61,702 nucleotides of DNA, taken from the IMG/VR virus record IMGVR_UViG_3300045919_000415, positions 1 to 61,702 of that record. One strand, 5' to 3'. Each line of letters begins with the position of its first letter. Position 1 is the first letter of the stretch. Below, in pieces: positions 19,231 to 45,529 of this stretch. Below the pieces are notes generated by a model. The model was not told the DNA's origin. It searched no databases and was given only the letters and a program-made list of their open reading frames with translations. This DNA comes from a virus (lineage: Duplodnaviria; Caudoviricetes). Position numbers and translations under genes: made by a program.

Positions 19231-20697
19231 TCAGTATCCCACCTCAGTGTCCAGCACCCCGAAGCTCGGGACGGTTATGTGTCGTTGCATCTTCTGCGCC
19301 TTGACTGCGGTTGCTTCATCCTTCGTCTTCGCGAAGCGCTTCATCATGATTGCGTAGCGTGTCGCGGACAGCACGTCGTCAAATTCCTTGACCAGACGCC
19401 CATCCTTGCGGTGGTACTGCCTGAACTCATCGAACCATGGAGCGAGGTGGCTGAACACCTTGAGCCTGCCTGTCTGCATGCGGTCGAGCATCTCAGCGAT
19501 GCCGGCCTCCACGCCGTTGCTGCCGTTCTCGAACGTGGCGCGGTCCTTCAACATGTTCAAGCCTTGGTCCTTGTACAGCTGCATCAGCTGCTCACCTGAA
19601 CCCTTATCGTGTTGCAAGCCGTCGTGGGGCCATGCCACGGGATACCAGTCCCCCTTGGCACGGATCACCATCGCGTGCTCCGGGACAGATTTCTTCTTCA
19701 TCACGTACACGTCGTAGACGTACAGCGTGTCGGTGTCGCGGTCCCACGCCATCCACACGGCGGCGGTCGGGTGGTCCCACCCAAAATCGATGCCGATGAT
19801 CTTCGGCCAGTGTGCAGGGATGGCGAAGGCACCTGTCTTGATGCCCGATTCCGTCACCGGGAACACGGCGCCCTCACCCAGCATCGGCACGCCATTGGCA
19901 CGCGCTTCGCGCTCGTGCTCCGGGTATGCGGCGATGATCGATTCGCGCTGCTCCGGTGTGTAGTGCAGCGCGTCTGCAATGGTCATCTGCGTGATGTGCG
20001 TGCCGGCCGGGCGCTCCTGCATGAAGCGACGCACCACGGCCGACATGCCTAGCAGCGGCGTGAACGTCAGCGCCACGATGCCCTGCGTCGCGTTGGTCCG
20101 TGTCAGGCCTTCGGTGTACAGGTCGAGCGGCGGCTCTTCGTCGAACCACACGTAGTCCAACGTGTCCGCCTGCCACTTGGTCCTGCCTTGGTCGTACGAC
20201 TGCAACTGGATGACGCTGTCCTCGCCGCAGCTGTGGCGCACCACGATGCTGGCCACCGCGTCAGGCACGCCGGGTCGTAGCGCCGTGGACCTCAGGGCCG
20301 CCTTCGGCAGGTAGCCCGTGCCCCACTGTTCACGCTCTTCAGGTGAGCCCAGCAACAGGCGCTGAATGCCCTTCTTCGTCAGCTCGGCAGACTCTGACCC
20401 TGCCATCGACCTGATGGCGTAGGGGAAGCGTCGACCGGTCCACCACTTCGGGTACACGCCCGTGGCATGCATGGACAGCTCCGCAGCGCCGCTCACGGTC
20501 TTGCCGAGCTGATTGCCAGCGGAGAAGAGGCGCTCCCGCGCTGCTGCTCCGGCGGCATGGAACTCCACCTGCTTCGGGTAAGGCTGGTACAGCGCAAGGC
20601 GGTTCTCGCGTTGCTTCTGGTGCTTGGTCTGCAGCACCGCGAGCAGCTCGCGACGCTCAGCGGGTGTCAGGCTTGTCAGGTCAACCGACTGGCTCAC
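19231..20697 (-). CDS. terL: Terminase large subunit (P22-like)
   Basis: Walker A AGNQLGKT, Walker B VWFDEE, TFTP, nuclease GIDFG and DD.LSA.RYA. Confidence 0.95.
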   Translation of the reverse strand: MSQSVDLTSLTPAERRELLAVLQTKHQKQRENRLALYQPYPKQVEFHAAGAAARERLFSAGNQLGKTVSGAAELSMHATGVYPKWWTGRRFPYAIRSMAGSESAELTKKGIQRLLLGSPEEREQWGTGYLPKAALRSTALRPGVPDAVASIVVRHSCGEDSVIQLQSYDQGRTKWQADTLDYVWFDEEPPLDLYTEGLTRTNATQGIVALTFTPLLGMSAVVRRFMQERPAGTHITQMTIADALHYTPEQRESIIAAYPEHEREARANGVPMLGEGAVFPVTESGIKTGAFAIPAHWPKIIGIDFGWDHPTAAVWMAWDRDTDTLYVYDVYVMKKKSVPEHAMVIRAKGDWYPVAWPHDGLQHDKGSGEQLMQLYKDQGLNMLKDRATFENGSNGVEAGIAEMLDRMQTGRLKVFSHLAPWFDEFRQYHRKDGRLVKEFDDVLSATRYAIMMKRFAKTKDEATAVKAQKMQRHITVPSFGVLDTEVGY

Positions 20698-21287
20698 AGG
20701 TCCACCGTGCGGGCTTCGTCGATGATGTGCTGGTTCATCGCCTTGCCTAGCAGCTGTTGCAGCTTCAGGTCAACCTGTTCATCGGTGAGCGCCACGGTCG
20801 TGTTGACCTGCACTTCGCGTTTGGCCTTGTACACGTCGATCAGGCGCTCCACGACGAACTGCCGCGACTTGACCCGCAACGTGGCCCGCTGAATCTCGGC
20901 CATGCCTGCCTTGGCTGGCAGGTCGTCACCAATGCTGATGATTTCCTCTGCGTATGCCTGCGCACGTCGGCCCAATGCGTTGACGTAGCGGCCATACATC
21001 GCCGGGTCGGCGTCGCACATGTCGTTGAACGCATCCGCTGTGAGCCCATGCGTGCGGCACGATTCAGCCAGCGTCGCGCCCTCGCCGATGCTCTTGCACA
21101 CCTTTTCGACCCACTCGGCGCGCTCTTCCACGGCGAAGTCCATGAGGCGTGAGCGCATGCGCTCTTGCAGCGACTTGCCCACCTGTACGCGTCGTGCTTT
21201 CTTCAGCGATGGCGGCGCACCAGTGAGCGGTGACACCGTGGTGAGCGTGTCCCCTGCGTTAGCTTGGCTGTGGGCGTGCTTGGCCAT
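20694..21287 (-). CDS. terS: Terminase small subunit (Sf6 gp1-like)
   Basis: HTH plus AEEIISIGDD...IQRATLRV..RQF; immediately upstream of terL. Confidence 0.75.
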   Translation of the reverse strand: MAKHAHSQANAGDTLTTVSPLTGAPPSLKKARRVQVGKSLQERMRSRLMDFAVEERAEWVEKVCKSIGEGATLAESCRTHGLTADAFNDMCDADPAMYGRYVNALGRRAQAYAEEIISIGDDLPAKAGMAEIQRATLRVKSRQFVVERLIDVYKAKREVQVNTTVALTDEQVDLKLQQLLGKAMNQHIIDEARTVDL

Positions 21288-21297
21288 GTTGCGACGC

Positions 21298-21483
21298 TTA
21301 AATCTTCCCAGGCTTCACATCGGCCGTGAACCCGGGAATGTTTTTCAGCGCGCCGGTGCCTTTGCCTGCTTCGACGGGATAGCTGTCCGCCGGAATCTTC
21401 TGCGTGGGGATGCTGACCTTGCCGTCCACTACACCTTTGGTGCTGGGGTTGCGGCTGGCCTTGGGGCTTGAGAAGTTCTGCAT
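21298..21483 (-). CDS. Small basic hypothetical protein
   Basis: 61 aa with GAGG RBS. Confidence 0.55.
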   Translation of the reverse strand: MQNFSSPKASRNPSTKGVVDGKVSIPTQKIPADSYPVEAGKGTGALKNIPGFTADVKPGKI

Positions 21484-21510
21484 GGTTGCCTCTGTGTAGG
21501 TGTTGCGGGG

Positions 21511-21951
21511 TTAAACCTGTGAGCCCGGGGCGACGATGCTGCGTGTCTGCCCTTGGCGCTTTTTCGCTTCCTGTTGCCACATCGTGGACATGTCGGGAAT
21601 GTCAGCACTGTCACTGGCGCCTTCGCCTTGATCCTCGGCGCCGGTGTCGCCGGCTTCGGTGTCTTCGTCGGCAGCGGACTCGTTTTGCTCCGTGCCATTG
21701 ACGCACTCGGTGATTTCCTCGAGCGCCTCGTCGAGCGATGCGGCGTCTTCGTCGCAGAGCACTTGACCCTTGAGCGTGACCATGACGTGACAGCTGCCAT
21801 CGGTGCCGACGTGGATGATCGCCTTGTAGGTGCCCGGCTGCGCGCTGCCTTGGCTTTGATCTGCATCTGTCTGTGCGCCTGCACTCGGATCAGCCGGCGT
21901 AGGGGCTGCGCTGGCGGATGACTGTGCCGCTTGATCGAAGGGGCTTGACAT
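21511..21951 (-). CDS. Acidic hypothetical protein (first gene of late operon)
   Basis: ATG 21951 with AAGGA RBS. Confidence 0.55.
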   Translation of the reverse strand: MSSPFDQAAQSSASAAPTPADPSAGAQTDADQSQGSAQPGTYKAIIHVGTDGSCHVMVTLKGQVLCDEDAASLDEALEEITECVNGTEQNESAADEDTEAGDTGAEDQGEGASDSADIPDMSTMWQQEAKKRQGQTRSIVAPGSQV

Positions 21952-22072
21952 GTGGGTTCCTTGGGTTCTGTTCACGTTTGCCCGCTGTTCATGGAACGTG
22001 AACAGCGCGGGGAAGTGAACACTTTGTGAGGCGTGGAGGCTGGGAAATGCAGACGAAATTCGGGCGAGGTCG

Positions 22073-22101
22073 ATGATAGCTTGTGAGGCTAGCAAGCACA
22101 A
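22073..22101 (-). promoter_or_regulatory. Putative sigma70 late promoter
   Basis: TTGTGC-17 nt-TATCAT on the minus strand upstream of the structural operon. Confidence 0.5.
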
Positions 22102-22130
22102 GTGGGCGAAACATGCAAGGAAAATTGTAT

Positions 22131-22196
22131 TAGGGTTTACCCTTATACTGTTACAACATTTTACAATTTATTCCTGCAAAACCTAGGGTTTACCCT
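22131..22196. promoter_or_regulatory. Two TAGGGTTTACCCT dyad boxes (22131-22143, 22184-22196)
   Basis: Identical 13-mers containing AGGGT-N2-ACCCT, 53 bp apart, in the AT-rich divergent intergenic region. Confidence 0.6.
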
Positions 22197-22225
22197 GTAG
22201 ACGTCGATGTCTACACCTGTAGAAT
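22196..22225 (+). promoter_or_regulatory. Putative early promoter with overlapping operator
   Basis: TAGACG-16 nt-TAGAAT; near-perfect palindrome TGTAGACGTCGATGTCTACA at 22196-22215. Confidence 0.5.
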
Positions 22226-22240
22226 TCGAGCTTCAGTACC

Positions 22241-22423
22241 GCAGTTCAGCAACACGCAGTGACCTGATGTCGACAGGGAATTCGACAGAGTAGGTTGGCT
22301 GGTTTGTGTCAACGTACTCGACGGCTTGGACTACGAGGGATGCAGCGCCCCGTACGATGCCCGACTGGACCACCGGCTCACGCCGCCGGTGACGCATCAC
22401 TACACTGCCTGTTGCTGAGCTGC
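22241..22423 (+). ncRNA. Structured multibranch 5' leader RNA of the early operon
   Basis: 29-nt arms 22241-22269 and 22395-22423 pair (25 pairs including one G-U) and enclose several hairpins. Confidence 0.6.
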
Positions 22424-22463
22424 GTTGCTCAACACCTCCTCCCCCTACCTATGGAGCAATGCC

Positions 22464-22904
22464 ATGAACACTGTCGATATCACCGCCGCACACGTTGAAT
22501 CCCTGAAGGCCCGCCTCAAGGCTGCGAAGGACGAGCAGAAGGCTGCCGTGACTGAAGCCAAGGTGCATGCCAAGGCGCTCGCTGCAGCGAACAAAGCTGC
22601 AGACGCCGCAGGCAAGAAGGTCGGCAAGCAGGCTGTCGTGATCAGCAACCTGACCGCGCAACTCGCCGCCCTCAACAATGCCATGAACAATGCCGATATC
22701 ATCGCCGCACACATTGAATCCTTGAAGGCTTGGTGTCTTTCGAACTACGAACACGGCGCCGACGTGATGGTCGAATGCTGGGCCGATGAGGACTTCCGAT
22801 CGCTGCTCGCCTCATCAACGGACTACGCCGACGCGTTGTCCACCCTGATGGGCGTGGCTGCGGTCTACCGTGATCAGCGAGCCGACGCTCGCAACTCTTG
22901 GTAG
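22464..22904 (+). CDS. Early protein with duplicated N-terminal module
   Basis: GGAG RBS; MNTVDITAAHVESLKA repeated internally as MNNADIIAAHIESLKA. Confidence 0.7.
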   Translation: MNTVDITAAHVESLKARLKAAKDEQKAAVTEAKVHAKALAAANKAADAAGKKVGKQAVVISNLTAQLAALNNAMNNADIIAAHIESLKAWCLSNYEHGADVMVECWADEDFRSLLASSTDYADALSTLMGVAAVYRDQRADARNSW

Positions 22905-22907
22905 TCA

Positions 22908-22959
22908 GGACGAAACCGCCGGGAGGCGGTCCGCACGTGACGCGTGCGCTGATGAGTCC
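22908..22959 (+). ncRNA. Type II hammerhead ribozyme HHR1 (predicted cleavage after C22931)
   Basis: GGAC-GAAA-CCGCC(GGGA)GGCGG-TC-CGCACG(TGACG)CGTGCG-CTGATGA-GTCC. Confidence 0.93.
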
Positions 22960-22985
22960 AGCAGCACTCACTCTGGGGCAATGTC

Positions 22986-23216
22986 ATGAAATTCTGGGTC
23001 ATTCAAAACGCTCAAGGCAGCCCTTGTGGCTGCGAGCTCACGAAGGCGGCTGCAATCGAAACCGCGCGCAAAGAGGGGAACAGCGGCTTCTCGCTCCGTT
23101 GGTTGGATATCCCCGTGTCGAGCGAATCTATCCGACTCATCCTCGGAAACGGCGGTGGCTACGCCAACGAAGTGGGTAGAACGGAAGATTTCGATCCGGT
23201 GGGAGAATCAAAGTGA
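22986..23216 (+). CDS. Hypothetical early protein
   Basis: 76 aa, first gene after HHR1. Confidence 0.65.
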   Translation: MKFWVIQNAQGSPCGCELTKAAAIETARKEGNSGFSLRWLDIPVSSESIRLILGNGGGYANEVGRTEDFDPVGESK

Positions 23217-23392
23217 ACGGTTACATCTGTTTTTACAAAGACAAACGTGTTGAAGTCCACGCCGACTCAGCGTATGCGGCGCAGTGTGCGGTCGCTAAAG
23301 CTCTTCGCGTGTCCGATAAGAACCGCTGGAAAATCACCGTTTGTCTTGCCGAACGCTCAACTGGTGAGACCGTCGTGCACACTTTTCAATGA
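23213..23392 (+). CDS. Small early protein (59 aa, not in the ORF track)
   Basis: GTG start with GGGAG RBS: MNGYICFYKDKRVEVHADSAYAAQ...ETVVHTFQ. Confidence 0.7.
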   Translation: MNGYICFYKDKRVEVHADSAYAAQCAVAKALRVSDKNRWKITVCLAERSTGETVVHTFQ

Positions 23393-23401
23393 GGAACCAA
23401 A

Positions 23402-23680
23402 ATGAACGCCGTCCAATATCGTAAATATCGTAAGACGTGCATGACCCTTGCCGGCAAGATCGCCGAACAGATCGCCGCCCTCCCCGAGGCTGAGCGCTTC
23501 GGTGCGATCGTCGGAATTTTCAAGGCGGCCAGCAAGTCACCATCCCTTCGGGGTGACGTGTTCTGGACGCTCGACAACGAGCCCGGCCACTGGGATCACC
23601 TGAAGGGTTGGCACGGCGTGTTGCGCCAAGTGCGCAACACGCCGAGCGAAGGCACCAAGCTTTTCGCTCTGTTTTCGTAA
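23402..23680 (+). CDS. Hypothetical early protein
   Basis: 92 aa, GAGGA RBS; stop abuts HHR2. Confidence 0.65.
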   Translation: MNAVQYRKYRKTCMTLAGKIAEQIAALPEAERFGAIVGIFKAASKSPSLRGDVFWTLDNEPGHWDHLKGWHGVLRQVRNTPSEGTKLFALFS

Positions 23681-23683
23681 TCA

Positions 23684-23735
23684 GGACGAAACCGCCGGGA
23701 GGCGGTCCGCACGTGACGCGTGCGCTGATGAGTCC
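23684..23735 (+). ncRNA. Type II hammerhead ribozyme HHR2 (cleavage after C23707)
   Basis: Identical to HHR1. Confidence 0.93.
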
Positions 23736-23760
23736 AGAAGCACTCGCCTGGAGCAATGCC

Positions 23761-24234
23761 ATGTTTTCTTTCCCTCTTCACCCGAATGTCAGCGCTGGTG
23801 ACCTGAATGTTTTGGACCGGTTCCAAAAAAATCCGGCAGGATACAAATCCAGCACGGGCTGGTGCATTTTGTCGGCGTTTCGCAAGAGCAGCACGGGCTC
23901 GCAAAACGTGTTTGCCAGCACAGCGCTGGCGTACCTGCTGACCGCGCAGGGATACGCGTTTGATCGCACGGTCGGTGTGTACGAAGGCGAAGACCCTGAG
24001 CCCGGGTATCTGATCATTTGCGACAAGGCCAAGGCTATCTTCCTCGGTCACGGTCTCGGGCAAGAGTCGGTGTTAACGTCCGATGGGCTGGTGTATACGG
24101 ACAACAGCGGCCGAGACCCGGTGCCGTTCGACCACGGTCACACCGACCTGCTGGGCGCAGCTGCGGAGCGGGAGCCTTTTTATACCCACTTCCCGACGAC
24201 TGGGGTGTCGTGGTCTGCTCACCTGTTGTTTTAA
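23761..24234 (+). CDS. SAM lyase (T3 SAMase-like) anti-restriction protein
   Basis: ILSAFR...N...GVYEG...E...GQESVL...GLVY...FYT mirrors T3 SAMase motifs (VSAFR, GCYRE, EE, EQDCVL, GLVY). Confidence 0.72.
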   Translation: MFSFPLHPNVSAGDLNVLDRFQKNPAGYKSSTGWCILSAFRKSSTGSQNVFASTALAYLLTAQGYAFDRTVGVYEGEDPEPGYLIICDKAKAIFLGHGLGQESVLTSDGLVYTDNSGRDPVPFDHGHTDLLGAAAEREPFYTHFPTTGVSWSAHLLF

Positions 24235-24238
24235 GCAA

Positions 24239-24290
24239 GGACGAAACCGCCGCGAGGCGGTCCGCACGTAACGCGTGCGCTGATGAGTCC
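24239..24290 (+). ncRNA. Type II hammerhead ribozyme HHR3 (cleavage after C24262)
   Basis: GGAC-GAAA-CCGCC(GCGA)GGCGG-TC-CGCACG(TAACG)CGTGCG-CTGATGA-GTCC. Confidence 0.93.
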
Positions 24291-24313
24291 AGACCGACTT
24301 TAGGAGAATCAAA

Positions 24314-24601
24314 ATGCGTGGATATGAAGACATCGTGGCCGGCAACGCTCGCGCCCAATCCCTCGGGATCGAACTGCCGGCAGGCGCCATCGGCACCGAC
24401 CCCCTGCAGTCCAAGGGCCACAGCGCCGTGCAAGGCGGCCTGCGTGGCCACTCGTTGGGCCACGATTACCCGTTCACGGTCAGCAAGATCGGCGATCGCT
24501 ATCAAGCCTATCACTGCTTGCACCCGGAACAGTCGGGCCCGGCAGTCGACACCTACGCGGAGGCGAAGGCCTTCATCGCCGCCGCGCATCTGGGGCATTA
24601 A
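24314..24601 (+). CDS. Hypothetical early protein (single-gene cassette)
   Basis: 95 aa, AGGAG RBS, between HHR3 and HHR4. Confidence 0.7.
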   Translation: MRGYEDIVAGNARAQSLGIELPAGAIGTDPLQSKGHSAVQGGLRGHSLGHDYPFTVSKIGDRYQAYHCLHPEQSGPAVDTYAEAKAFIAAAHLGH

Positions 24602-24605
24602 GCAA

Positions 24606-24657
24606 GGACGAAACGCCCGCGAGGGCGTCTGCCGGTTTCGCCGGCACTGATGAGTCC
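24606..24657 (+). ncRNA. Type II hammerhead ribozyme HHR4 (cleavage after C24629)
   Basis: GGAC-GAAA-CGCCC(GCGA)GGGCG-TC-TGCCGG(TTTCG)CCGGCA-CTGATGA-GTCC; compensatory changes in stems I and III. Confidence 0.93.
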
Positions 24658-24677
24658 AGCTCGACTTTTAGGAGAGA

Positions 24678-25031
24678 ATGATGGCAAAGATTACGAACAA
24701 ACAAGTGCGCAGCGCCGTGGAGTCCCGCACGGAATTCAGCAATAAAACCGGCTCGTTGTACGGCGGCTGGCCTTACCCGGGCGTCTATGCCGTGAACAGC
24801 TACGGTCCGTGGTGGCCCCTGTTGGTGTACGTAGAGGCCGAAACCCAATGGTATGTCAACGTGACCCATCACAGCGCTACCACCAATCTGCACCGCAAGG
24901 CCGCATACCCGCGCAGCGAGAAGCCAATCATCGAGCTCACGTTGTCGGAAATCGATTCGTTGCTGGACGGCTTTCATGCGGCCGACTGTGACGCTCGCAA
25001 TGCCCGTAACGCCGCACGGGGGGAAGCATGA
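24678..25031 (+). CDS. Hypothetical early protein
   Basis: 117 aa, YAVNSYG..WPL...HSATT..H motif. Confidence 0.7.
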   Translation: MMAKITNKQVRSAVESRTEFSNKTGSLYGGWPYPGVYAVNSYGPWWPLLVYVEAETQWYVNVTHHSATTNLHRKAAYPRSEKPIIELTLSEIDSLLDGFHAADCDARNARNAARGEA

Positions 25032-25360
25032 AACTGCTCAACGCTTTTTCCCTTTCGATGCTGCCCGAATTCCGGGGCCGCGTCACCGTAGTGCGGCTCA
25101 CGCTGGAGGATGTCAAGCTCGACTTCGACGAAGAGCCGATAGAGTCTTTCGTTGGACACGCGGATACCGCCGCATTGTTTTCCGCCCTGATTGGCAAGGA
25201 AGTCGCTTGCCGTCGGGAGTCGGTCACCCTTCAGCCGGGAGAGCAGGTTTGGGTGGGCCAGTACACCGGCCCGCGTTTGCCAGAAGGCAGCAAGACGCTG
25301 CCGGAAGGCGCAAGCGTCGAATGGCTGTTTGTCACCGTCGACCGCGTCAACGAATCGTAG
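25028..25360 (+). CDS. acrIII-1: AcrIII-1-family viral ring nuclease (DUF1874, STIV B116-like)
   Basis: LLNAFSLSML, SFVGHADTA, RxxVTL.PG, GPRLPEG family motifs including the GH catalytic His. Confidence 0.85.
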   Translation: MKLLNAFSLSMLPEFRGRVTVVRLTLEDVKLDFDEEPIESFVGHADTAALFSALIGKEVACRRESVTLQPGEQVWVGQYTGPRLPEGSKTLPEGASVEWLFVTVDRVNES

Positions 25361-25369
25361 GAGATTTGA

Positions 25370-25744
25370 ATGAAAACATACATCAATTCATATTTTGGCC
25401 AGATCAAGGGTGTTTATTTGTCACCTGCTGATGCTGGATTCGGATTCGCCGAAAGGGCTATTGCGTACCTGTCCACTGATGGGACGTTTCTTGGTTACGA
25501 ATACCAGGATATAAAGAAGTACAACTCATACGAGCGTCAAATGCTCGTTGTTGGCAGGGCCCGTGTAGGAACCCAGTTGGATGATGAGCGCCGAGGAGCA
25601 GAGTTGTCTGTAGAAGTTAAGGATAAGTTGTCTTCGGCCCTCAAGGCCGCTCAAGATGAGCAACAAAGGAAGATTGCTGAAGAACTTGCGCAATTGAATG
25701 CGCAGACTTTCGATGTTTATGGCAACGAGGTTAATAATGGATGA
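25370..25744 (+). CDS. Hypothetical protein, lower GC
   Basis: 124 aa, AGGAG RBS. Confidence 0.65.
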   Translation: MKTYINSYFGQIKGVYLSPADAGFGFAERAIAYLSTDGTFLGYEYQDIKKYNSYERQMLVVGRARVGTQLDDERRGAELSVEVKDKLSSALKAAQDEQQRKIAEELAQLNAQTFDVYGNEVNNG

Positions 25745-25922
25745 ACCCATCGTTTTGCGGGCAAAGGAAGCCACTGTTTCAATGTCTCCAATGGATAATT
25801 TTGACGACACTTTTTTCGTCAGCATCGGAAATCCGGGATGTTCCATTTATTTCGGCCTGACTGAAGCGGAGTTGCGCAAGTTGCTGGACAACATCAACAA
25901 GCTGTTGGAGGTGTCGGCATGA
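25737..25922 (+). CDS. Hypothetical protein
   Basis: ATG 25737 with GAGG RBS. Confidence 0.55.
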   Translation: MDEPIVLRAKEATVSMSPMDNFDDTFFVSIGNPGCSIYFGLTEAELRKLLDNINKLLEVSA

Positions 25923-26116
25923 TTACCGACAACGACGGATACCTGTTTAGCCGTGATCCTGACGCGCCGGTCATTGCTGAGCGACTTGAACACGCGATGT
26001 GGGCATTGCAAGGGGCACTCAGCGCGATTCCTGCCGGTCATCCAGAGCGCCAGAAGATCGAGCGCGAACTCGAAATGATCGACGCCACCCTCGCCAAAGC
26101 ACGGGGGCAAGCATGA
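25919..26116 (+). CDS. Hypothetical protein
   Basis: 65 aa, GGAGG RBS, ATGA coupling. Confidence 0.6.
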   Translation: MITDNDGYLFSRDPDAPVIAERLEHAMWALQGALSAIPAGHPERQKIERELEMIDATLAKARGQA

Positions 26117-26223
26117 GACGCCTCTGGCCCGAAGTTCTCGCCTGCCTTTGCTTTGTTCTGTCGCCGATCCTGTTCGCTTGGCTGGCGATGTGCCTCGCCG
26201 AAATCGCACGCGGCACCTATTAA
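26113..26223 (+). CDS. 36-aa single-TM membrane peptide
   Basis: MRRLWPEVLACLCFVLSPILFAWLAMCLAEIARGTY; its TAA abuts HHR5. Confidence 0.55.
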   Translation: MRRLWPEVLACLCFVLSPILFAWLAMCLAEIARGTY

Positions 26224-26275
26224 GGACGAAACGCCCGCGAGGGCGTCCGCACGTGACGCGTGCGCTGATGAGTCC
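26224..26275 (+). ncRNA. Type II hammerhead ribozyme HHR5 (cleavage after C26247)
   Basis: GGAC-GAAA-CGCCC(GCGA)GGGCG-TC-CGCACG(TGACG)CGTGCG-CTGATGA-GTCC. Confidence 0.93.
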
Positions 26276-26293
26276 CACTTTTTACTGGAGGAA

Positions 26294-26743
26294 ATGATGG
26301 AACGCTATATCGACCCGGGCGTTGAACAGACGCCCGAATACTACGGCACGCTGCAAGCGATGCCTAACCCCTACTTCATCCCTGCGTGGGTGGTGCATAC
26401 CTTCACGATGTCATGCGGCGCCCCGGTGTGGATCGGGCACGCCGGCAACAAGCCGCCGCACGAAACGTACACGCTGTCCGAGGCCGAAGTGGAGCTCATG
26501 ATCGAGCACAAGGGCGACACCAACACCCTGTCCCGGTTGGTGCGTGATGGGCTCGCTCGCCGTGAACAGGCCTACAACGCCATGCAGGACGCCAAGGCGG
26601 CGTGGATGAGGGCGCCACTGGACGATGCCTCTACACGATTTTTATTGGCACGTTTCCAACAGCTCAGGGCGCTTTACTACCTCGACTTCACATCCCGCCA
26701 AAAGAACGTTTTTGTGGTTGGCGAACGGCAGACATACCCGTGA
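26294..26743 (+). CDS. Hypothetical early protein
   Basis: GGAGG RBS, first gene after HHR5. Confidence 0.65.
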   Translation: MMERYIDPGVEQTPEYYGTLQAMPNPYFIPAWVVHTFTMSCGAPVWIGHAGNKPPHETYTLSEAEVELMIEHKGDTNTLSRLVRDGLARREQAYNAMQDAKAAWMRAPLDDASTRFLLARFQQLRALYYLDFTSRQKNVFVVGERQTYP

Positions 26744-27042
26744 GAACCTACGCCCCCCGCCAACAGTCGCAGTTCGGGGCCAATGCGGCGCGTGCCCACG
26801 GTCCGCTGTACACGACCCAAGAGCTCGCGCTCGCACTGTCCAGCGTCACGCCGGGTTTGACCATGCGTGAGCTCACCTGCTTCATCATGAAACACGCCGA
26901 CACCGTGCCCGCACCGTCGACGCTTTACACCTCGCAGCGTGGCGCCGTCAAGTATTACCCGCTGCACTCATTCATTCGTTGGTACAAGGAAACCTTATGC
27001 AAATCGACCGCGCCTACAGCTGGGCACAAACCGAGCGAATAG
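26740..27042 (+). CDS. Excisionase/AlpA-like winged-HTH protein
   Basis: YTTQELA...P.P...KYYP...FIRWY pattern. Confidence 0.45.
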   Translation: MRTYAPRQQSQFGANAARAHGPLYTTQELALALSSVTPGLTMRELTCFIMKHADTVPAPSTLYTSQRGAVKYYPLHSFIRWYKETLCKSTAPTAGHKPSE

Positions 27043-27212
27043 CCCACGAGCTGCGCATCTCGAACGACAAGGCGCAAGCCCTGCACTACGAGATGGTGCG
27101 TCACGGCTACTTCGACACGACTCTCGTGCCACAACGCTTGATGGAACAGTGGCTTAAAGGGCCAAAGTACGACGTCCCCGAAAGCTTCTACACCCGTTAC
27201 AAACTCGACTAG
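26997..27212 (+). CDS. Hypothetical protein
   Basis: ATG 26997 with AAGGA RBS. Confidence 0.55.
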   Translation: MQIDRAYSWAQTERIAHELRISNDKAQALHYEMVRHGYFDTTLVPQRLMEQWLKGPKYDVPESFYTRYKLD

Positions 27213-27221
27213 GAGAGAATC

Positions 27222-27632
27222 ATGAAACTCGGTTCCCAAACCAACAGCATCGTGAATCACTTGTATGCACGCGGCACAATCGGCCAACCGGACCCGGTGG
27301 TCGGCATGGGTGTCACACTGCTCGGCTGGACTGACCGGAACGCCGGAACGATCCACGCCGTGCGCCTGTTGGCCAGCAAGCAGTGGTCGTGGGAAATCGA
27401 AGTGACCCACGACGCCTCGAAAGTCGTGTCCGGCTCCACGCTCGACGGAACGGCTGACTACGAATACACGCCGCGCCCGGACGGCGCACGCATGGTCTTT
27501 CGATTCAGCCTGAAATCAGGCATGTGGGTATGCGGAAGCATCAATCCAGACACCTCGAAATTCAATGCCAACAAACGCGGAAGTGGGTTGCGAATTGGTG
27601 AACGCGAGTCGTACTACGACCCCACGTTCTAA
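27222..27632 (+). CDS. Conserved phage hypothetical protein
   Basis: 136 aa, PVVGMGVT...WTDR...GxRESYYDPTF; TAA abuts HHR6. Confidence 0.7.
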   Translation: MKLGSQTNSIVNHLYARGTIGQPDPVVGMGVTLLGWTDRNAGTIHAVRLLASKQWSWEIEVTHDASKVVSGSTLDGTADYEYTPRPDGARMVFRFSLKSGMWVCGSINPDTSKFNANKRGSGLRIGERESYYDPTF

Positions 27633-27684
27633 GGACGAAACGCCCGCGAGGGCGTCCGCACGTAACGCGTGCGCTGATGAGTCC
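27633..27684 (+). ncRNA. Type II hammerhead ribozyme HHR6 (cleavage after C27656)
   Basis: GGAC-GAAA-CGCCC(GCGA)GGGCG-TC-CGCACG(TAACG)CGTGCG-CTGATGA-GTCC. Confidence 0.93.
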
Positions 27685-27708
27685 AGACCGACTTATAGGA
27701 GAGACAAC

Positions 27709-27960
27709 ATGATCCTCAAATACAACTCAAGCGTGAAGACGCCAGCGGGATGGCGTAATGTGGAAATCACGGCCACGGCAGAACGGGTCAGCAAGGGCAT
27801 GGCCTTGGTCACGCACATCAGTGCGATCGATGGCAAGCCGCTTGCCTACGACATGACGCGCACAGGTGCACGGCGTCAAGAGTTCAACGGCCATTTCTGG
27901 GCTGCCCGACAGGTCGGCACCATGAAGCGCATATCTGCGTGCACCGAGGTGCAGCCATGA
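27709..27960 (+). CDS. Hypothetical early protein
   Basis: AGGAG RBS after HHR6. Confidence 0.65.
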   Translation: MILKYNSSVKTPAGWRNVEITATAERVSKGMALVTHISAIDGKPLAYDMTRTGARRQEFNGHFWAARQVGTMKRISACTEVQP

Positions 27961-28196
27961 ATCACTTTCCACCCCTCTACTACGACGACCCTTACCACAG
28001 CCGGCAGTTCAACACGTGGATTCGCCTGAACTTCCTGTTGGCCTTGTTCGAGCCAGACGCCACTGTGTCGGCTATCGATGCCGGCTACTGCCTCGACGCG
28101 GTGCCGTCCATCCCGCGCGGCGGCATGCACGTCCGTCACATCAGCCGCTGGCTGCGCGCCAAGCCGACCTCGACCCTGATGCGGGACCTGCCATGA
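27957..28196 (+). CDS. Hypothetical protein
   Basis: GAGG RBS, ATGA coupling. Confidence 0.5.
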   Translation: MNHFPPLYYDDPYHSRQFNTWIRLNFLLALFEPDATVSAIDAGYCLDAVPSIPRGGMHVRHISRWLRAKPTSTLMRDLP

Positions 28197-28594
28197 GGGG
28201 CGCCATCCACCATCCGATGCTGGACAAGGCGCTCAGCTCCAAAGTGCAGAAGTTCCTCGCCATGGAGGCCACCGCCGGGATGGTGATGGGGCGCGATCGC
28301 TTCGGTGATCTCGACATCACGTTCTTCGGCCCGGCGTGGGACTTCGAGACCTTGGAACAGGCGCGATTCCATCACGACTCGAACGGCAACACGGTGCTCT
28401 CGACCTTCGAGAAACCCTCCGTCAGCCGGACCAAGGTCGCACTCGACCTGATGTCTGGCAACCCCGGCATGTCGATGCGCGAAGCGTCACGGCGTGCCGG
28501 CATCAACGTCATGGCGGTCTCACGCGCCGTGCGCAGCGCCGACAAACCGCGCTGCCCTCACTGCGGCTCAGTCATTCACCACAAGCCCAGCTGA
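28193..28594 (+). CDS. HTH DNA-binding protein with C-terminal CxxC
   Basis: MSMREASRRAGINVMAVSRAV HTH; CPHCG. Confidence 0.6.
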   Translation: MRGAIHHPMLDKALSSKVQKFLAMEATAGMVMGRDRFGDLDITFFGPAWDFETLEQARFHHDSNGNTVLSTFEKPSVSRTKVALDLMSGNPGMSMREASRRAGINVMAVSRAVRSADKPRCPHCGSVIHHKPS

Positions 28595-29094
28595 CTCGAC
28601 AGGCGTCGCCCCACGGCGGCACCTGTTTCATACTCCTTCTGGTCAATGAGCCCGCGCAACCACCGCGCCGCCTCGTCTCGTCCCGGCATCTTGGGCAGCT
28701 CACGCTGTCCCGTGCCGTGGCAGTAGCCGCAGTCCTCGTCCATGAGCGTCTGCACGTTCGTGCCCGGCAGGTGTCCCTTGCCTCCGCACGCACGACAATT
28801 CCCATCGATGTAATGATCCAGCACCTGCATCACCACCTTGCGTGCGTCCTGCCAGTTAATCACCGGCCCCCACTTGCTGCGACGCAGCTCCCCCTCCAGC
28901 ATCTGCACCACGTCGTGCGCCACGCTGCCGTCCTGCGTGAACTTCAGCCGCCACAGCGCCGCCCCGAGTGGGTTTCGCGCACCCGCCATCCCCATCGCCC
29001 GGATCACATCGATGTCCGACATGTCGTCAAGGTTATCTGACTCGCTCAGATCGCTTGATTCCATCGCGCCCACCATCCTTTCACTTCTTCCCAT
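28576..29094 (-). CDS. Antitermination protein Q-like (Zn finger)
   Basis: AMGMAG..NPLG.ALWRLK, CRACGGKG and CGYCHGTG. Confidence 0.65.
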   Translation of the reverse strand: MGRSERMVGAMESSDLSESDNLDDMSDIDVIRAMGMAGARNPLGAALWRLKFTQDGSVAHDVVQMLEGELRRSKWGPVINWQDARKVVMQVLDHYIDGNCRACGGKGHLPGTNVQTLMDEDCGYCHGTGQRELPKMPGRDEAARWLRGLIDQKEYETGAAVGRRLSSQLGLW

Positions 29095-29178
29095 CTCCTG
29101 CTCCCTCAGAATCGTTTTGGGCTGGCCAGATCGCTCCCAGTTGAACGATCGGACCCTTGTGTGTGGGTTGGGGCCTCC

Positions 29179-30609
29179 TCACCCTTTCAACGCAGCCAAG
29201 AGGCCGTTTTGCAAACTGTGCTTGCCCTGCAACAGGTCCGGCAGTGCCTCCTCCAGCGTGTCCGCCGCGCAAATGACCCGGACCACCACCTGCGCCGCCT
29301 GCGTCCCGTGGCGGTGCAGGCGATCGTTCAGCTGCTCGAAGTGGTCCAAGTCATGCGGGCAGCCGTACCAGACGACATTGTGTCCGGCGGTCTGCAGTCC
29401 GTCCAGACCGTGGCCGCCTTCCTTCGGGTGCATGACCAGCACCTGAAACTTGCCCGCGATCCAGTCCTGCAGCCGGTCAATGCGCCCGGCCCGCTTGCCG
29501 AGGCGCCGCAGAATGGCCTCCCGGTCCGCTGCGTAGCGGTACCCGACCACGATGCCGCCCGCGGTGCCGTCGACAATGTCCTCCAGCGCGTCCAGCTTCT
29601 CGTCGTGCACGTGTGCGACCTGTTTCTCCTGCCCGTGTTCGTCGTACGTGATGACCCGGCCATTGGCGATCTGCAGCAGCTTGATCATCTTGGCCGCCGC
29701 TTCGGGCGTCGCCACTTCCCGGTCACCAATCAACGTGACCAATTCGCTCTTGAGCTCGCGATACATCTCCCGCGCGTCCACGGGCAACTCCACCCACTCG
29801 GCCTTGATGATGAGTGGCGGCAGGTCCAGCCAGTCCTCCTTGCGAAACGCGAAGCAGATATCCGACACCCGCGCGCTCACCCGCGCCGCCGTGTCGTCCT
29901 TCTCCACATATACCGCACGCTGCTGCCCTTGGACCGTGATCAACTTGTCAATCGCCATGAACTGCTTGCGGAAGGCGCCAATGGTCGTGCCGAGGCGCTC
30001 ACCCCCGTCCAACAGTCCGACCGGGAAAAACACATCCTCGATGCCGTTGGCTGCCGGCGTGCCGGTCAGCTGCACCTGCCGCTTGACGAAGTCGCGAATG
30101 GACCGCGCCGCCCGGAACGCCAGACTCTTCTTGTTCTTGAGGTGACGCGCTTCGTCGAACACGACGCCGTCATACGGGAAGTTCACGCCATAGGCCCGCA
30201 CCAGATGCGGGAACTGCTCATAGCTCACCAAGTGGATGCACTCGCGCATCGCCAGCAGCGCCGCCTTGGTCCCGGCCCTGTCCTTCAACGCCAGCACTTT
30301 GCGGCTCTTGTCCTTCGGGTGCGCCACCCGCTGCAGCTGGATGTGGTCCGTGTCGATGATCCGCCAGCTCAGGTGCCGCGTGTGGTCCCACTTCGCGATC
30401 TCTTTCGGCCACGTCAGCTGCGTCACCCGCTTCGGGCTCACGATCAGCCACCGGCTCACCTCGAACCTGTCATGGGCCAGCACGTCGATCGCCGACAGTG
30501 TCGACACCGACTTGCCCAGCCCCGGCTTCGCCCACAACGCGCACGCCGGCAACTCGATCACCTTGTTCGTCATCGTCTGCTGATACGGCCTTGCCTTGTA
30601 TTGGGTCAT
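29179..30609 (-). CDS. SNF2-like DEAD/H-box helicase
   Basis: PGLGKS, FDEA, LTGTP, KLLQIANG, GGHGLDGLQ, QLNDRLHR. Confidence 0.88.
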   Translation of the reverse strand: MTQYKARPYQQTMTNKVIELPACALWAKPGLGKSVSTLSAIDVLAHDRFEVSRWLIVSPKRVTQLTWPKEIAKWDHTRHLSWRIIDTDHIQLQRVAHPKDKSRKVLALKDRAGTKAALLAMRECIHLVSYEQFPHLVRAYGVNFPYDGVVFDEARHLKNKKSLAFRAARSIRDFVKRQVQLTGTPAANGIEDVFFPVGLLDGGERLGTTIGAFRKQFMAIDKLITVQGQQRAVYVEKDDTAARVSARVSDICFAFRKEDWLDLPPLIIKAEWVELPVDAREMYRELKSELVTLIGDREVATPEAAAKMIKLLQIANGRVITYDEHGQEKQVAHVHDEKLDALEDIVDGTAGGIVVGYRYAADREAILRRLGKRAGRIDRLQDWIAGKFQVLVMHPKEGGHGLDGLQTAGHNVVWYGCPHDLDHFEQLNDRLHRHGTQAAQVVVRVICAADTLEEALPDLLQGKHSLQNGLLAALKG

Positions 30610-30908
30610 GCTTTCATCCTCACCAGAAAAAGATTCACACCCTCACGCGTGTCCGCCCATCCCGCCACACACCCCATGCGCGTCAACCGCTCAATCCACC
30701 ACCGCTGAATCCGGCTCGGCGTTTTTCCCGCCTTCTTCAATTCCAGAAACCCTATCCGGTTCCGGGGTATCACAATCAACCGGTCCGGCAATCCATCCCA
30801 TCCCAGCTTGACCGTGAACCCTTTGCGCCGCTTGACCTCCTCCCCGAGATAGTCCTCAAGGTTCAATTCTTTTGTCCCTACAAGCAGATCAAGCATTCCC
30901 TCCCCCAT
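30606..30908 (-). CDS. VRR-NUC domain nuclease
   Basis: GLPDRL...FLELK..G..PS.IQ. Confidence 0.85.
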   Translation of the reverse strand: MGEGMLDLLVGTKELNLEDYLGEEVKRRKGFTVKLGWDGLPDRLIVIPRNRIGFLELKKAGKTPSRIQRWWIERLTRMGCVAGWADTREGVNLFLVRMKA

Positions 30909-30960
30909 CCCTTGTTATCCCCCGTTGCGGCGTCCCTCCGGGAGTCTGTAACCAGTTGTG

Positions 30961-31168
30961 CAATGTCACTACTGTCACTACGCGCGCTATTACTTTATTT
31001 CTCGCGCACGTTTTACCTTTAGAAAAATGGCACGTAAGTAAGTATTCGCGTGTAGTGACAGTACCGACAGTAGCCTCAAAACGGCCAGTTTTTACCGCAT
31101 TGTGAAAAGACCCTACTAGGCTAATGTCGGTACTGTCAGCCATTGTCGCTACTGTCAGTATTGTCACT
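30961..31168. repeat. Cluster of ~9 degenerate 9-bp repeats (AHTGTCRSY) in both orientations; candidate replication origin
   Basis: aatgtcact-actgtcact, inverted pair near 31054-31071, five copies at 31123-31168; AT-rich core. Confidence 0.5.
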
Positions 31169-42266: not shown

Positions 42267-42820
42267 GTGAAGTCAACATGAACTACATCATCACGTTCAC
42301 CGGAAAGAAGGTGTGTCTCGGTGGTCCTTCGAGAGACTCGTTGGATATCGATGACATCGCGCATGCACTGGCCAACATCCCGAGATTCAATGGGCATTTG
42401 GACACGCGCTACAGCGTGGCTGAGCACAGCTTGTTCGTGATGAAGCTCGTGCGCAAGTACACCTCTTCAATACGTGTATTGCGTGCGGCTCTGATGCATG
42501 ATGCCAGCGAAGCCTATCTCGGTGACATGTCGACCCCGCTCAAGCTGATGTGTCCTGACTACCGCACCATCGAGAAGAACTTCGAGGAGCAGTTGGCCAT
42601 CAAGTTTAACTACAACGGCTTGCCGGAAGAGCACCTGCAGACTATCAAAATGTGCGACTTTCAGGCGCTTCAAATCGAGGCGGAGTGTTATCACTACCAC
42701 CTGCATAACCAAGAGAGGTGGGCGTGGGCAGACCAGCAGGTGCCAACCCCCCAACCATTCAGCACCGCTGAAGATGCGGGAGAAGCGTTCCTTCAAGCCT
42801 ATGATCTGATGAAGCTGTGA
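42263..42820 (+). CDS. HD-domain nucleotide phosphohydrolase (YfbR/YfdR-like)
   Basis: DIAHALA...RFNGH...YSVAEHS...LMHDASEAY.GD..TPLK. Confidence 0.85.
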   Translation: MSEVNMNYIITFTGKKVCLGGPSRDSLDIDDIAHALANIPRFNGHLDTRYSVAEHSLFVMKLVRKYTSSIRVLRAALMHDASEAYLGDMSTPLKLMCPDYRTIEKNFEEQLAIKFNYNGLPEEHLQTIKMCDFQALQIEAECYHYHLHNQERWAWADQQVPTPQPFSTAEDAGEAFLQAYDLMKL

Positions 42821-45353: not shown

Positions 45354-45529
45354 TCTGGTCCGCGCTCTTCTGGCTGATCGTTGCGATGGCGGCGGCTATT
45401 GCCCACATGACGACGCGAGTGGAGCGCGGAGACTTCGCGTTCTGGTTGGTGGTGGGGTGTAGCGTGCTGGGGTTGGCCGGGTTCATCACGGAGTGTGTGA
45501 ACGCCGGCCGTATCCCGTTTACATGGTAG
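45350..45529 (+). CDS. 59-aa two-TM membrane protein
   Basis: ATGA-coupled: MIWSALFWLIVAMAAAIAH...FWLVVGCSVLGLAGF. Confidence 0.45.
   Translation: MIWSALFWLIVAMAAAIAHMTTRVERGDFAFWLVVGCSVLGLAGFITECVNAGRIPFTW

What the first reader, a model, noticed from the sequence alone, without database searches (positions are those of the whole stretch)
22908..27684. Six type II hammerhead ribozymes punctuate the phage early operon
Seen: six 52-nt elements (starts 22908, 23684, 24239, 24606, 26224, 27633) reading GGAC-GAAA-[stem III + GNRA loop]-TC-[6-bp stem I]-CTGATGA-GTCC, all sense to the operon. The core is invariant. Stems covary: CCGCC/GGCGG vs CGCCC/GGGCG, and CGCACG/CGTGCG vs TGCCGG/CCGGCA. Every copy is intergenic, 0-4 nt after a stop and 18-26 nt before the next start. 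Established: this is the hammerhead consensus (CUGANGA, GAAA, GUC cleavage triplet) opened at stem II, and cleavage gives 5'-OH and 2',3'-cyclic phosphate ends. Inference: the early transcript self-cleaves into units of 776, 555, 367, 1618 and 1409 nt. Each would start with a 5'-OH hairpin and end in a GC hairpin, a protein-independent analogue of RNase III processing of T7/T3 early mRNA and a natural version of ribozyme insulators. Isolated phage hammerheads are known; I am not aware of a described gene-by-gene array like this, but could not search.
Basis: partly seen in the sequence, partly recalled or inferred. Interest (0 to 1): 0.95.

Follow-up and report, generated by a model that had tools for sequence, protein, structure and literature searches.

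The report
Six hammerhead ribozymes in phage operon
Six well-formed self-cutting hammerhead RNAs sit between gene blocks of one operon in an uncultured 62-kb phage and probably chop its long message into separate pieces; this layout has been known in phages since 2011, so it is a clean but ordinary example.

Summary
Six 52-nt elements start at 22908, 23684, 24239, 24606, 26224 and 27633, all on the + strand. All have the full hammerhead core in type II topology. Rfam Hammerhead_II (RF02276) matches all six, but only one passes the curated cut-off: 38.4 bits against 37, the others 28.0-33.1. My own descriptor finds exactly six and none in 20 shuffled windows. A covariance model finds no seventh or degenerate copy.

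The nearest relative phage has three hammerheads at syntenic junctions, with the same core and compensatory stem changes.

Self-cleavage and transcription were not testable, because no RNA run holds the stretch.

The novelty claim fails. Perreault et al. 2011 (PMC3088659, section 6 read) described multiple hammerheads flanking single genes or short gene blocks in prophages. They showed cleavage of three such arrangements in vitro and of one in E. coli. In 120 public viral stretches I counted arrays of up to 11 copies. This scan has also noted such arrays before on other DNA: 140 notes in at least 125 genomes.

The array is not gene-by-gene. The five ribozyme-bounded units hold 3, 1, 1, 6 and 4 genes.

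Verdict: real, a new member of a known kind, low interest.

The parts
22198..22225 (+). Only sigma-70-like promoter match on the + strand upstream of the cluster (TAGACG-16-TAGAAT)
   Evidence: It is a consensus match only: 1 site found in 21500-31500 against a mean of 3.0 in shuffles, so it is weak evidence.
22425..22904 (+). First ORF of the + strand cluster (up to 159 aa, start uncertain). Its stop lies 3 nt before HH1.
   Evidence: only sub-threshold Pfam hits.
22908..22959 (+). HH1, type II hammerhead. Predicted cleavage after C22931.
   Evidence: Rfam RF02276 32.1 bits, below the cut-off of 37. Descriptor hit. Model R1 84.3 bits (R1 was built from this copy, among others).
22986..23680 (+). 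Unit 1: three small ORFs (22986-23216, 23213-23392, 23402-23680) joined by a 4-nt overlap and a 9-nt gap
   Evidence: No Pfam or PHROG family. The 23402 ORF has a 72% identical homologue in L127.
23684..23735 (+). HH2, identical in sequence to HH1. Predicted cleavage after C23707.
   Evidence: Rfam 30.2 bits. The relative L127 has a plain 35-nt spacer with no ribozyme at this junction.
23761..24234 (+). Unit 2: a single 157-aa ORF with a weak resemblance to SAM lyase
   Evidence: PF23780 18.1 bits, below the cut-off of 28, E 0.0027. No related solved structure by sequence. No PHROG family.
24239..24290 (+). HH3. Predicted cleavage after C24262.
   Evidence: Rfam 32.4 bits. A syntenic hammerhead stands in L127 between homologues of the same two genes.
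24314..24601 (+). Unit 3: a single 95-aa ORF of unknown function
   Evidence: 78% identical homologue in L127.
24606..24657 (+). HH4, with variant stem I UGCCGG/CCGGCA. Predicted cleavage after C24629.
   Evidence: Rfam 38.4 bits, the only copy over the gathering score of 37. Syntenic hammerhead in L127.
24678..26223 (+). Unit 4: six ORFs joined by overlaps or a 9-nt gap. ORF 25028-25360 is a DUF1874 / STIV B116-like protein; I recall, from no call, that the AcrIII-1 ring nucleases belong to this family.
   Evidence: PF08960 31.4 bits, over the cut-off of 26. PDB sequence matches 2x4i, 2j85, 2j6b and 6scf.
26224..26275 (+). HH5. It abuts the TAA stop directly. Predicted cleavage after C26247.
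   Evidence: Rfam 28.0 bits, a partial match to model positions 4-56. In L127 a hammerhead precedes the homologue of the same downstream gene.
26294..27632 (+). Unit 5: four ORFs (26294-26743, 26740-27042, 26997-27212, 27222-27632)
   Evidence: No Pfam family. Three of the four have homologues in L127.
27633..27684 (+). HH6. It abuts the TAA stop directly. Predicted cleavage after C27656.
   Evidence: Rfam 33.1 bits.
27709..30721 (+). Last unit: an 83-aa ORF (27709-27960) and further + strand ORFs up to the 515-aa ORF 29161-30708. A terminator-like hairpin with a T run follows at 30703-30721.
   Evidence: Homologues of the 83-aa ORF lie beside hammerheads in L034, L011, L043 and L112.

Best explanation
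These are six genuine cis-acting type II hammerhead ribozymes, transcribed as part of one plus-strand operon of small accessory genes in a complete 61.7-kb tailed phage.

Each copy folds as stem III hairpin, GUC, stem I hairpin and a 4-bp open stem II. It cuts itself after C17, which severs the polycistronic RNA at six places.
- Each upstream piece ends, just after its last stop codon, in GGAC-GAAA plus the GC-rich stem III hairpin with a 2',3'-cyclic phosphate.
- Each downstream piece begins with a 5'-OH at the foot of the stem I hairpin, followed by CUGAUGAGUCC and a spacer of about 20 nt with a Shine-Dalgarno site before the next start.

The ribozymes therefore bound blocks of translationally coupled genes. 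They give each block its own hairpin-capped ends and a leader that does not depend on what lies upstream.

Shown here: sequence, fold, covariation, synteny and layout. Established for the family: the cleavage chemistry. Inferred: cutting by these particular copies, transcription of the strand, and any effect on mRNA stability or translation.
For: - Core: C3-A9, G12-A14, A15.1-U16.1 and C17 are invariant in 6 of 6, with no mispair next to the core. These are the acceptance criteria in the Methods passage of PMC3088659.
- Rfam: RF02276 matches all six and no other family comes near.
- Covariation with the syntenic L127 copies: 144 of 144 cells paired, 6 of 16 pairs changed on both sides, 0 one-sided changes, and 0 of 500 shuffles reach the score.
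- Covariation on the 150 best model hits in viral contigs: 100% of cells paired, 13 of 16 pairs with double changes (that alignment was fitted to the model).
- Synteny: the L127 hammerheads sit at the junctions matching HH3, HH4 and HH5, with different stems and N7 = C.
- Layout: all six junctions of 70-81 nt between 22904 and 27709 hold a hammerhead. The other 10 junctions are overlaps or 9-nt gaps.
- The same layout across the family: an upstream stop within 5 nt in 148 of the 186 copies that have an upstream ORF stop within 40 nt (19 more of the 205 have none). A ribosome-binding site and start within 35 nt in 151 of 205. All copies on one strand in 46 of 47 loci with several copies.
- Precedent: three clustered arrangements cleaved in vitro and one in E. 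coli (PMC3088659 section 6). Three type II hammerheads near phage genes cleave in vivo in D. vulgaris (PMC8782182 passages).
Against: - No cleavage or expression data exist for these copies; no RNA run holds the stretch.
- Five of the six fall below Rfam's gathering score.
- The loop I / 3'-tail pseudoknot that most type II hammerheads use as tertiary brace is absent. The best complement is 2-3 bp, so speed at cellular Mg2+ is uncertain.
- In minimum-energy folds with flanks, stems I and III form in 6 of 6 but the 4-bp stem II forms in only 2 of 6. Competing pairings with the flanks appear in HH1, HH2, HH5 and HH6.
- The promoter match is weak.
- The purpose of such processing is called unresolved in the reviews (PMC6765202 section 13 passage and PMC6155905 passage).
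Confidence: 0.75

Rival explanations
1. The unit of ribozyme plus Shine-Dalgarno leader is first of all a repeated junction element. It spreads and is homogenised by recombination, and it serves as a crossover point for swapping gene cassettes between phages. RNA cleavage would be secondary.
For: - Copies within the window resemble each other more than they resemble their syntenic partners in L127.
- Across 29 arrays of three or more copies, identical hairpins occur in 18 of 287 within-array pairs against 12 of 8359 between-array pairs.
- Left halves (stem III) and right halves (stem I loop plus spacer) occur in incompatible combinations. HH3 and HH6 share the right half and differ in the left.
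- HH2's junction has no ribozyme in L127.
- Only 4 of 80 terminase-relative loci carry hits.
Against: - A pure recombination site would not need 13 invariant catalytic nucleotides together with compensatory stem changes.
- Large arrays such as L095 have 11 copies, all with different stems, so each copy is kept under selection for its fold.
- The strict sense orientation (46 of 47 loci with several copies) points to function at the RNA level.
Confidence: 0.1
2. Cleavage is gated by translation. The ribozyme starts 0-4 nt after the stop codon, so a terminating ribosome covers the GGAC strand and part of stem III. The ribozyme could then fold and cut only once the ribosome has left, or only on untranslated RNA.
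For: The stop-to-ribozyme gap is 0-4 nt in 6 of 6 copies here. Across the family it is 5 nt or less in 148 of 186 copies, with the stop overlapping or abutting the ribozyme in 89.
Against: Tight spacing is equally expected from genome compaction, or from the stop codon supplying the conserved A before GGAC (187 of 205). No kinetic or ribosome data exist. The ribosome footprint is recalled, not computed.
Confidence: 0.08
3. Excised units are re-ligated into circular or spliced RNAs. The 3' half of one ribozyme and the 5' half of the next share the same stem II (GGAC/GUCC), so they can rebuild a nicked hammerhead.
For: Stem II is invariant in 6 of 6, and stems I and III are self-contained hairpins, so any two halves are compatible. 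Reversible ligation by hammerheads is recalled knowledge.
Against: Perreault et al. raised this possibility and state that they could detect neither spliced nor circular products, data not shown (PMC3088659 section 6). A 4-bp stem II is a weak clamp across 367-1618 nt. Nothing here tests it.
Confidence: 0.04
4. The repeats are not catalytic. They would be paired GC hairpins acting as terminators, attenuators, RNase III sites or protein-binding sites.
For: Stems I and III are stable hairpins in every fold. Five of the six fall below Rfam's cut-off.
Against: The unpaired core nucleotides are invariant while the stems vary, here and in 140 distinct relatives. None of the six ribozymes was among the 14 terminator-like sites.
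Confidence: 0.03

Closest known systems
Clustered hammerhead ribozymes flanking single genes or short gene blocks in prophages (Perreault et al. 2011, PMC3088659; section 6 and passages read)
   Same: Several sense-oriented hammerheads, including type II, lie in intergenic gaps of phage operons of small, mostly unknown genes. [quoted passage not shown] There is an association with anti-restriction genes (ardA there). Here one cargo gene belongs to the DUF1874 family, and ArdA and ArdC-N appear in my census of downstream genes.
   Different: The three arrangements they tested are called tandem or triple; here there are six in 4.8 kb. This one lies in a complete phage genome and not in a prophage. 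The loop I / tail pseudoknot they describe for most type II copies is absent here. Their Figure 3 and supplements could not be seen, so larger arrays may already be drawn there.
Rfam RF02276 Hammerhead_II
   Same: Core, topology and helices match over the full model length in 5 of 6 copies (model positions 1-66).
   Different: Only 1 of 6 reaches the gathering score. Loop I is 5 nt against about 10 in the model, and the 3' tail does not match the consensus (alignments).
Type II hammerheads of Desulfovibrio vulgaris shown active in vivo by cyPhyRNA-seq (Olzog et al. 2021, PMC8782182; passages read)
   Same: Type II hammerheads near hypothetical and phage-like genes, two of them close together. 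They show that such copies cleave in cells.
   Different: Those lie in a bacterial chromosome, at most two adjacent. No sequence comparison with them was made here.
RNase III processing of T7/T3 early mRNA, and synthetic ribozyme insulators such as RiboJ (both recalled, no call)
   Same: They work alike: a polycistronic message is cut between cistrons, leaving hairpin-capped ends and a leader that does not depend on upstream context.
   Different: RNase III is a host protein that cuts double-stranded sites. RiboJ is an engineered type III-derived part. There is no family relationship to either.

Membership tests
Hammerhead ribozyme (any type) | Conserved core: C3 U4 G5 A6 N7 G8 A9, G12 A13 A14, A15.1-U16.1, H17 | tested here: met
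   CUGAUGA, GAAA, A-U and C17 are present in 6 of 6. The criteria come from the Methods passage of PMC3088659.
Hammerhead ribozyme (any type) | No mispair next to the core in stems I, II and III | tested here: met
   G10.1-C11.1, C1.1-G2.1 (U-A in HH4) and A15.1-U16.1 in 6 of 6. All 144 cells are paired in the nine-sequence alignment.
Hammerhead ribozyme (any type) | Three helices supported by covariation | tested here: met
   Stems I and III each have 3 of 6 pairs changed on both sides across the window and L127. Stem II never varies in those nine sequences, but 3 of its 4 pairs vary on both sides among 140 distinct relatives.
Hammerhead type II (RF02276) | Stems I and III closed by loops, stem II open | tested here: met
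   Direct reading and the descriptor.
Hammerhead type II (RF02276) | Score at or above Rfam's gathering cut-off (37 bits) | tested here: inconclusive
   1 of 6 passes (38.4 bits). The other five score 33.1, 32.4, 32.1, 30.2 and 28.0 bits.
Hammerhead type II (RF02276) | Pseudoknot of 4 or more bp between loop I and the 3' tail (present in a majority of type II copies, not in all) | tested here: not met
   The best complement is 2-3 bp in 6 of 6. In 205 relatives with the same stem II it is no more frequent than in shuffles (11.7% against 10.3%). Conserved instead are A before GGAC (187 of 205) and U at stem I position 7 (186 of 205); both hold in 6 of 6 here.
Hammerhead ribozyme (any type) | Site-specific self-cleavage giving 2',3'-cyclic phosphate and 5'-OH ends | not testable with these tools
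   No RNA run holds the stretch.
Clustered phage hammerheads (Perreault et al. 2011) | Several hammerheads in one orientation flanking genes of a phage operon | tested here: met
   Six copies, all on the + strand, at all six long intergenic gaps of the cluster.

The most novel reading that the evidence does not exclude
In this subfamily the ribozyme is fused to the upstream stop codon and, on its other side, to a standard Shine-Dalgarno leader. It would then work as a translation-gated cutter. It stays unfolded while a ribosome terminates on the stop 0-4 nt away and cuts only after release, so severing of each message block would be timed by translation of the block before it. The conserved A before GGAC and U at stem I position 7 would replace the usual pseudoknot as tertiary brace.
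Probability: 0.1. Interest if true: 0.6.

Novelty: new member of a known kind. Interest (0 to 1): 0.25.

Why it matters
Its value is as a tidy test case, not as a discovery. It is a complete phage genome in which every long intergenic gap of one operon holds a canonical hammerhead. A close relative keeps three of them at the same junctions with compensatory changes and lacks one.

What bacterial and phage hammerheads are for is still called an open question in reviews (PMC6155905 and PMC6765202, passages read). A small, regular array like this one, with one recognisable anti-defence-type gene among its cargo, would suit experiments that compare active and inactive ribozymes for their effect on mRNA stability and on expression of the flanked genes.

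It does not change what is known about the arrangement.

Tried and rejected
- my first full-length pattern had a spacer one base too long and found nothing. This was my slip. I replaced it, the gapped pattern and the descriptor.
- megablast of 20000-32000 against the phage collection gave no match, so no annotated relative was available.
- no RNA holder is listed. Three DNA runs (wetland metagenomes) hold the stretch.
- laying their contigs showed only that contigs break at the ribozyme repeats, as repeats do in assemblies. It says nothing about cleavage.
- the 149-aa ORF 26294-26743 gave no relative in viral contigs. One search returned only the two contigs I already had.
- the pseudoknot search was negative.
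- the SAM lyase reading of ORF 23761-24234 stays unsupported. Pfam is below the cut-off and there is no match among solved structures.
- the PHROG scans covered 20 of the larger ORFs. No RNA polymerase family turned up among them, so which polymerase reads the operon is unknown.
- five literature searches turned up no paper that defines the function of phage hammerhead arrays, and none that reports arrays of six or more. This rests on listings and on passages of five papers. Figures and supplements of PMC3088659, which hold the alignments and gene maps, could not be seen.
- Weinberg et al. 2015 is not held.
- Not run: structure prediction, complex prediction, the search for homologous proteins and the search of protein representatives. 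No protein question was decisive for this finding.

Full report
**What is there.** Reading 22800-27800 and aligning the six sites confirms six 52-nt elements at 22908, 23684, 24239, 24606, 26224 and 27633, all on the + strand. Each reads GGAC, GAAA, a 5-bp stem with a GGGA or GCGA loop, UC, a 6-bp stem with a 5-nt loop, CUGAUGA, GUCC. In hammerhead numbering:
- GGAC/GUCC is an open 4-bp stem II.
- GAA is G12-A14.
- The next A pairs with the U before C17, which gives a 6-bp stem III.
- Cleavage would follow C17.
- The second hairpin is stem I.
- CUGAUGA is C3-A9.

This is the type II topology. The core and stem II are invariant in 6 of 6.

**Is it more than chance?**
- CTGATGAGTCC occurs six times exactly. 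With two one-mismatch sites that makes 8, against 1.12 expected, and 0 of 100 shuffles reach 8.
- Rfam's Hammerhead_II model (RF02276) matches all six. Only 24606 passes the gathering score (38.4 bits against 37). The others score 33.1, 32.4, 32.1, 30.2 and 28.0 bits.
- A type II descriptor that I wrote (core motifs plus three helices, any stem sequence) finds exactly these six, all on the + strand, and nothing in 20 shuffled windows.
- A covariance model built from these six and three relatives (R1), run without filters, scores them at 81-86 bits and the next best place at 12.4 bits. There is no seventh or decayed copy. The six match R1 by construction; the informative result is the gap to the next place.

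**Context.** The window is a whole IMG/VR virus record of 61,702 bases, rated 100% complete. It encodes:
- large terminase (19231-20697, - strand) and a portal/adaptor protein (16970-19228, -);
- major head protein (7168-8226, -);
- family A DNA polymerase (42817-44811, +) and a primase-helicase (31136-33709, -);
- exonucleases and a Gp2.5-like single-strand DNA-binding protein;
- a 3252-aa protein with an N-terminal transglycosylase.

Megablast found nothing in the phage collection. The hammerheads lie in a + strand cluster that starts next to the divergently oriented packaging genes. The only sigma-70-like match upstream is at 22198-22225. A terminator-like hairpin follows the last large ORF at 30703-30721. 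Both are consensus matches only.

**Gene layout (my own ORF and ribosome-binding-site reading).** There are 16 gene junctions between 22425 and 27709. Six are gaps of 70-81 nt, and each of these holds a hammerhead. The other ten are overlaps (seven) or 9-nt gaps (three). The ribozymes therefore bound blocks of tightly coupled genes: 3, 1, 1, 6 and 4 genes between successive cleavage sites. The gaps from stop to ribozyme are 3, 3, 4, 4, 0 and 0 nt. The spacers from ribozyme to start are 26, 25, 23, 20, 18 and 24 nt. 'Gene-by-gene' is only partly right.

**Cargo.** ORF 25028-25360 matches Pfam STIV_B116-like (DUF1874) above the cut-off, 31.4 bits against 26. It also matches the solved proteins 2x4i, 2j85, 2j6b and 6scf. 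I recall, from no call, that the AcrIII-1 ring nucleases belong to this family. ORF 23761-24234 hits the SAM lyase family only below the cut-off, 18.1 bits against 28, and has no related solved structure. The rest have no family.

**Relatives.** Of 313 viral stretches encoding a terminase relative, the best 80 were fetched. Only four carry type II hammerheads by descriptor and by model R1: L127 and L128, and L192 and L193. Each pair gave the same hit positions and scores. Many of the 80 loci are short, so absence is weak evidence.

L127 has 83% terminase identity and comes from a 60,476-bp contig. It has three hammerheads, and tblastn places them as follows:
- between the homologues of ORFs 23761 and 24314 (the HH3 junction);
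- between the homologues of 24314 and 24678 (the HH4 junction);
- just before the homologue of 26294 (the HH5 junction).

Their core is the same except N7 = C, which is a free position. Their stems differ from the window's copies in a compensatory way: stem III CCGGC/GCCGG and stem I UGCAGG/CCUGCA. On the nine sequences, 144 of 144 cells pair, 6 of 16 pairs change on both sides, none changes on one side only, and 0 of 500 shuffles reach the covariation score. Slid controls drop to 21-50% paired.

At the HH2 junction L127 has a plain 35-nt spacer. The genes next to HH1 and HH6 are absent from L127. Ribozymes therefore come and go as discrete units. Homologues of the 83-aa ORF after HH6 lie beside hammerheads in four loci whose terminase is about 61% identical.

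**The wider family.** In these my descriptor counts 233 hammerheads.
- Copies per stretch: 0 in 3, 1 in 70, 2 in 20, 3 in 10, 4 in 8, 5 in 3, 6 in 1, 7 in 3, 8 in 1 and 11 in 1.
- 46 of the 47 stretches with several copies have them all on one strand.
- Model R1 over the window and 99 of these stretches gave 216 hits and confirms the large arrays. By my count of its rows: L095 10, L082 9, L092 8, L102 7, L075 7.

The stretches are at most about 15 kb, and they were chosen for one stem II sequence. The counts are therefore lower bounds from a biased sample. Even so, six copies is not unusual in public data.

On the 150 best hits (140 distinct), all helices covary strongly. That alignment was fitted to the model, which favours the structure.

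Among 205 unique copies:
- an upstream ORF stops within 40 nt in 186, and within 5 nt in 148 of those;
- a ribosome-binding site and start follow within 35 nt in 151, at a median of 22 nt.

The layout stop - ribozyme - leader - start is a trait of the family, not of this phage.

A Pfam census covered 150 ORFs directly downstream of such ribozymes, the first 150 of 173 non-redundant ones. It found mostly no family. The commonest is DUF932 (7 of 150). ArdA and the ArdC N-terminal domain appear once each.

**Tertiary brace.** Perreault et al. report that most type II hammerheads can form a pseudoknot of 4 or more bp between loop I and the 3' tail (section 6). The six copies manage only 2-3 bp. 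In the 205 relatives such pairing is no commoner than in shuffled tails, 11.7% against 10.3%. What is conserved instead:
- A directly before GGAC (187 of 205);
- U at the seventh position of stem I (186 of 205);
- a 17-nt stem I hairpin (129 of 205).

All three hold in 6 of 6 copies here. None of these positions was part of the search pattern. A loop-to-flank contact like the Hoogsteen pair of type I and III hammerheads (PMC6155905 passage) is a fair guess but is not shown.

In minimum-energy folds with flanks, stems I and III form in 6 of 6. The short stem II forms in only 2 of 6, and competing pairings with the flanks appear in HH1, HH2, HH5 and HH6. This is the main in-silico reservation about how fast these copies cut.

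**Mechanism.** The best reading is co-transcriptional self-cleavage after C22931, C23707, C24262, C24629, C26247 and C27656. Upstream pieces would end in the stem III hairpin with a cyclic phosphate. Downstream pieces would start with a 5'-OH stem I hairpin and a short standard leader.

The chemistry is established for the family. Clustered phage copies have been shown to cut in vitro and in E. coli, and type II copies cut in D. vulgaris cells. That these six cut, that the strand is transcribed as one RNA, and that the products differ in stability or translation are inferences. No RNA run holds the stretch.

**Comparison with what is known.** Perreault et al. [quoted passage not shown] Later reviews repeat the observation and call the function open. 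Five searches turned up no paper that settles the function. The figures and supplements of the 2011 paper were not visible to me.

This scan has itself noted such arrays many times on other DNA: 140 notes in at least 125 genomes, some with 10-33 copies. I did not check those notes.

**Verdict.** The processing model is plausible but unproven for these copies, and the novelty claim is not supported. This is a new member of a known kind, with interest 0.25.

Noticed in passing
window 22908-27708: The six copies are mosaics. Stem III hairpins fall into {HH1, HH2, HH3} and {HH4, HH5, HH6}. The stem I loop and the 3' spacer group HH3 with HH6, and HH1 with HH2. The two groupings are incompatible, which suggests exchange between copies near the cleavage site. 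HH1 and HH2 are identical, and their similarity runs on through the spacer to the start codon.
   Followed up: partly
loci L007-L126 (205 unique hammerheads) and window copies: In this stem II subfamily the usual loop I / tail pseudoknot is not enriched. A before GGAC and U at stem I position 7 are each about 91% conserved, which may mark a different tertiary contact.
   Followed up: partly
loci L007-L126: The commonest 3' tail is AUCAG (27 of 205). It is complementary to the core's CUGAU. In the window, the CGACUU tails of HH3, HH4 and HH6 can pair with GAGUC of the core and stem II; the HH6 fold shows this. These may be alternative or post-cleavage hairpins.
   Followed up: no
L095:2224-7240, also L092, L082, L102, L075: Other viral contigs carry 7-11 type II hammerheads within 3-6 kb. 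In L095 all 11 have different stems.
   Followed up: partly
alignment A5 (150 ORFs downstream of hammerheads): DUF932 is the commonest family directly after a hammerhead (7 of 150). ArdA, ArdC-N, a PolyVal metallopeptidase and an Ltp lipoprotein each appear once.
   Followed up: no
window 28016-29040: Two long + strand ORFs (28016-28594 and 28336-29040) overlap by about 260 nt in different frames. Both have homologues that overlap in the same way in L127. This could be a frameshift or a mis-set start.
   Followed up: no
window 25013-26017: In the three DNA runs this part has several times the summed contig depth of its surroundings, many variant letters, and contigs that run off into unlike sequence at about 25923. 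The small genes here seem to be shared with other genomes in the same samples.
   Followed up: no
window 45519-55277 (-): A 3252-aa protein with an N-terminal transglycosylase and a C-terminal part matching phrog_18222. It is probably an ejected internal virion protein.
   Followed up: no
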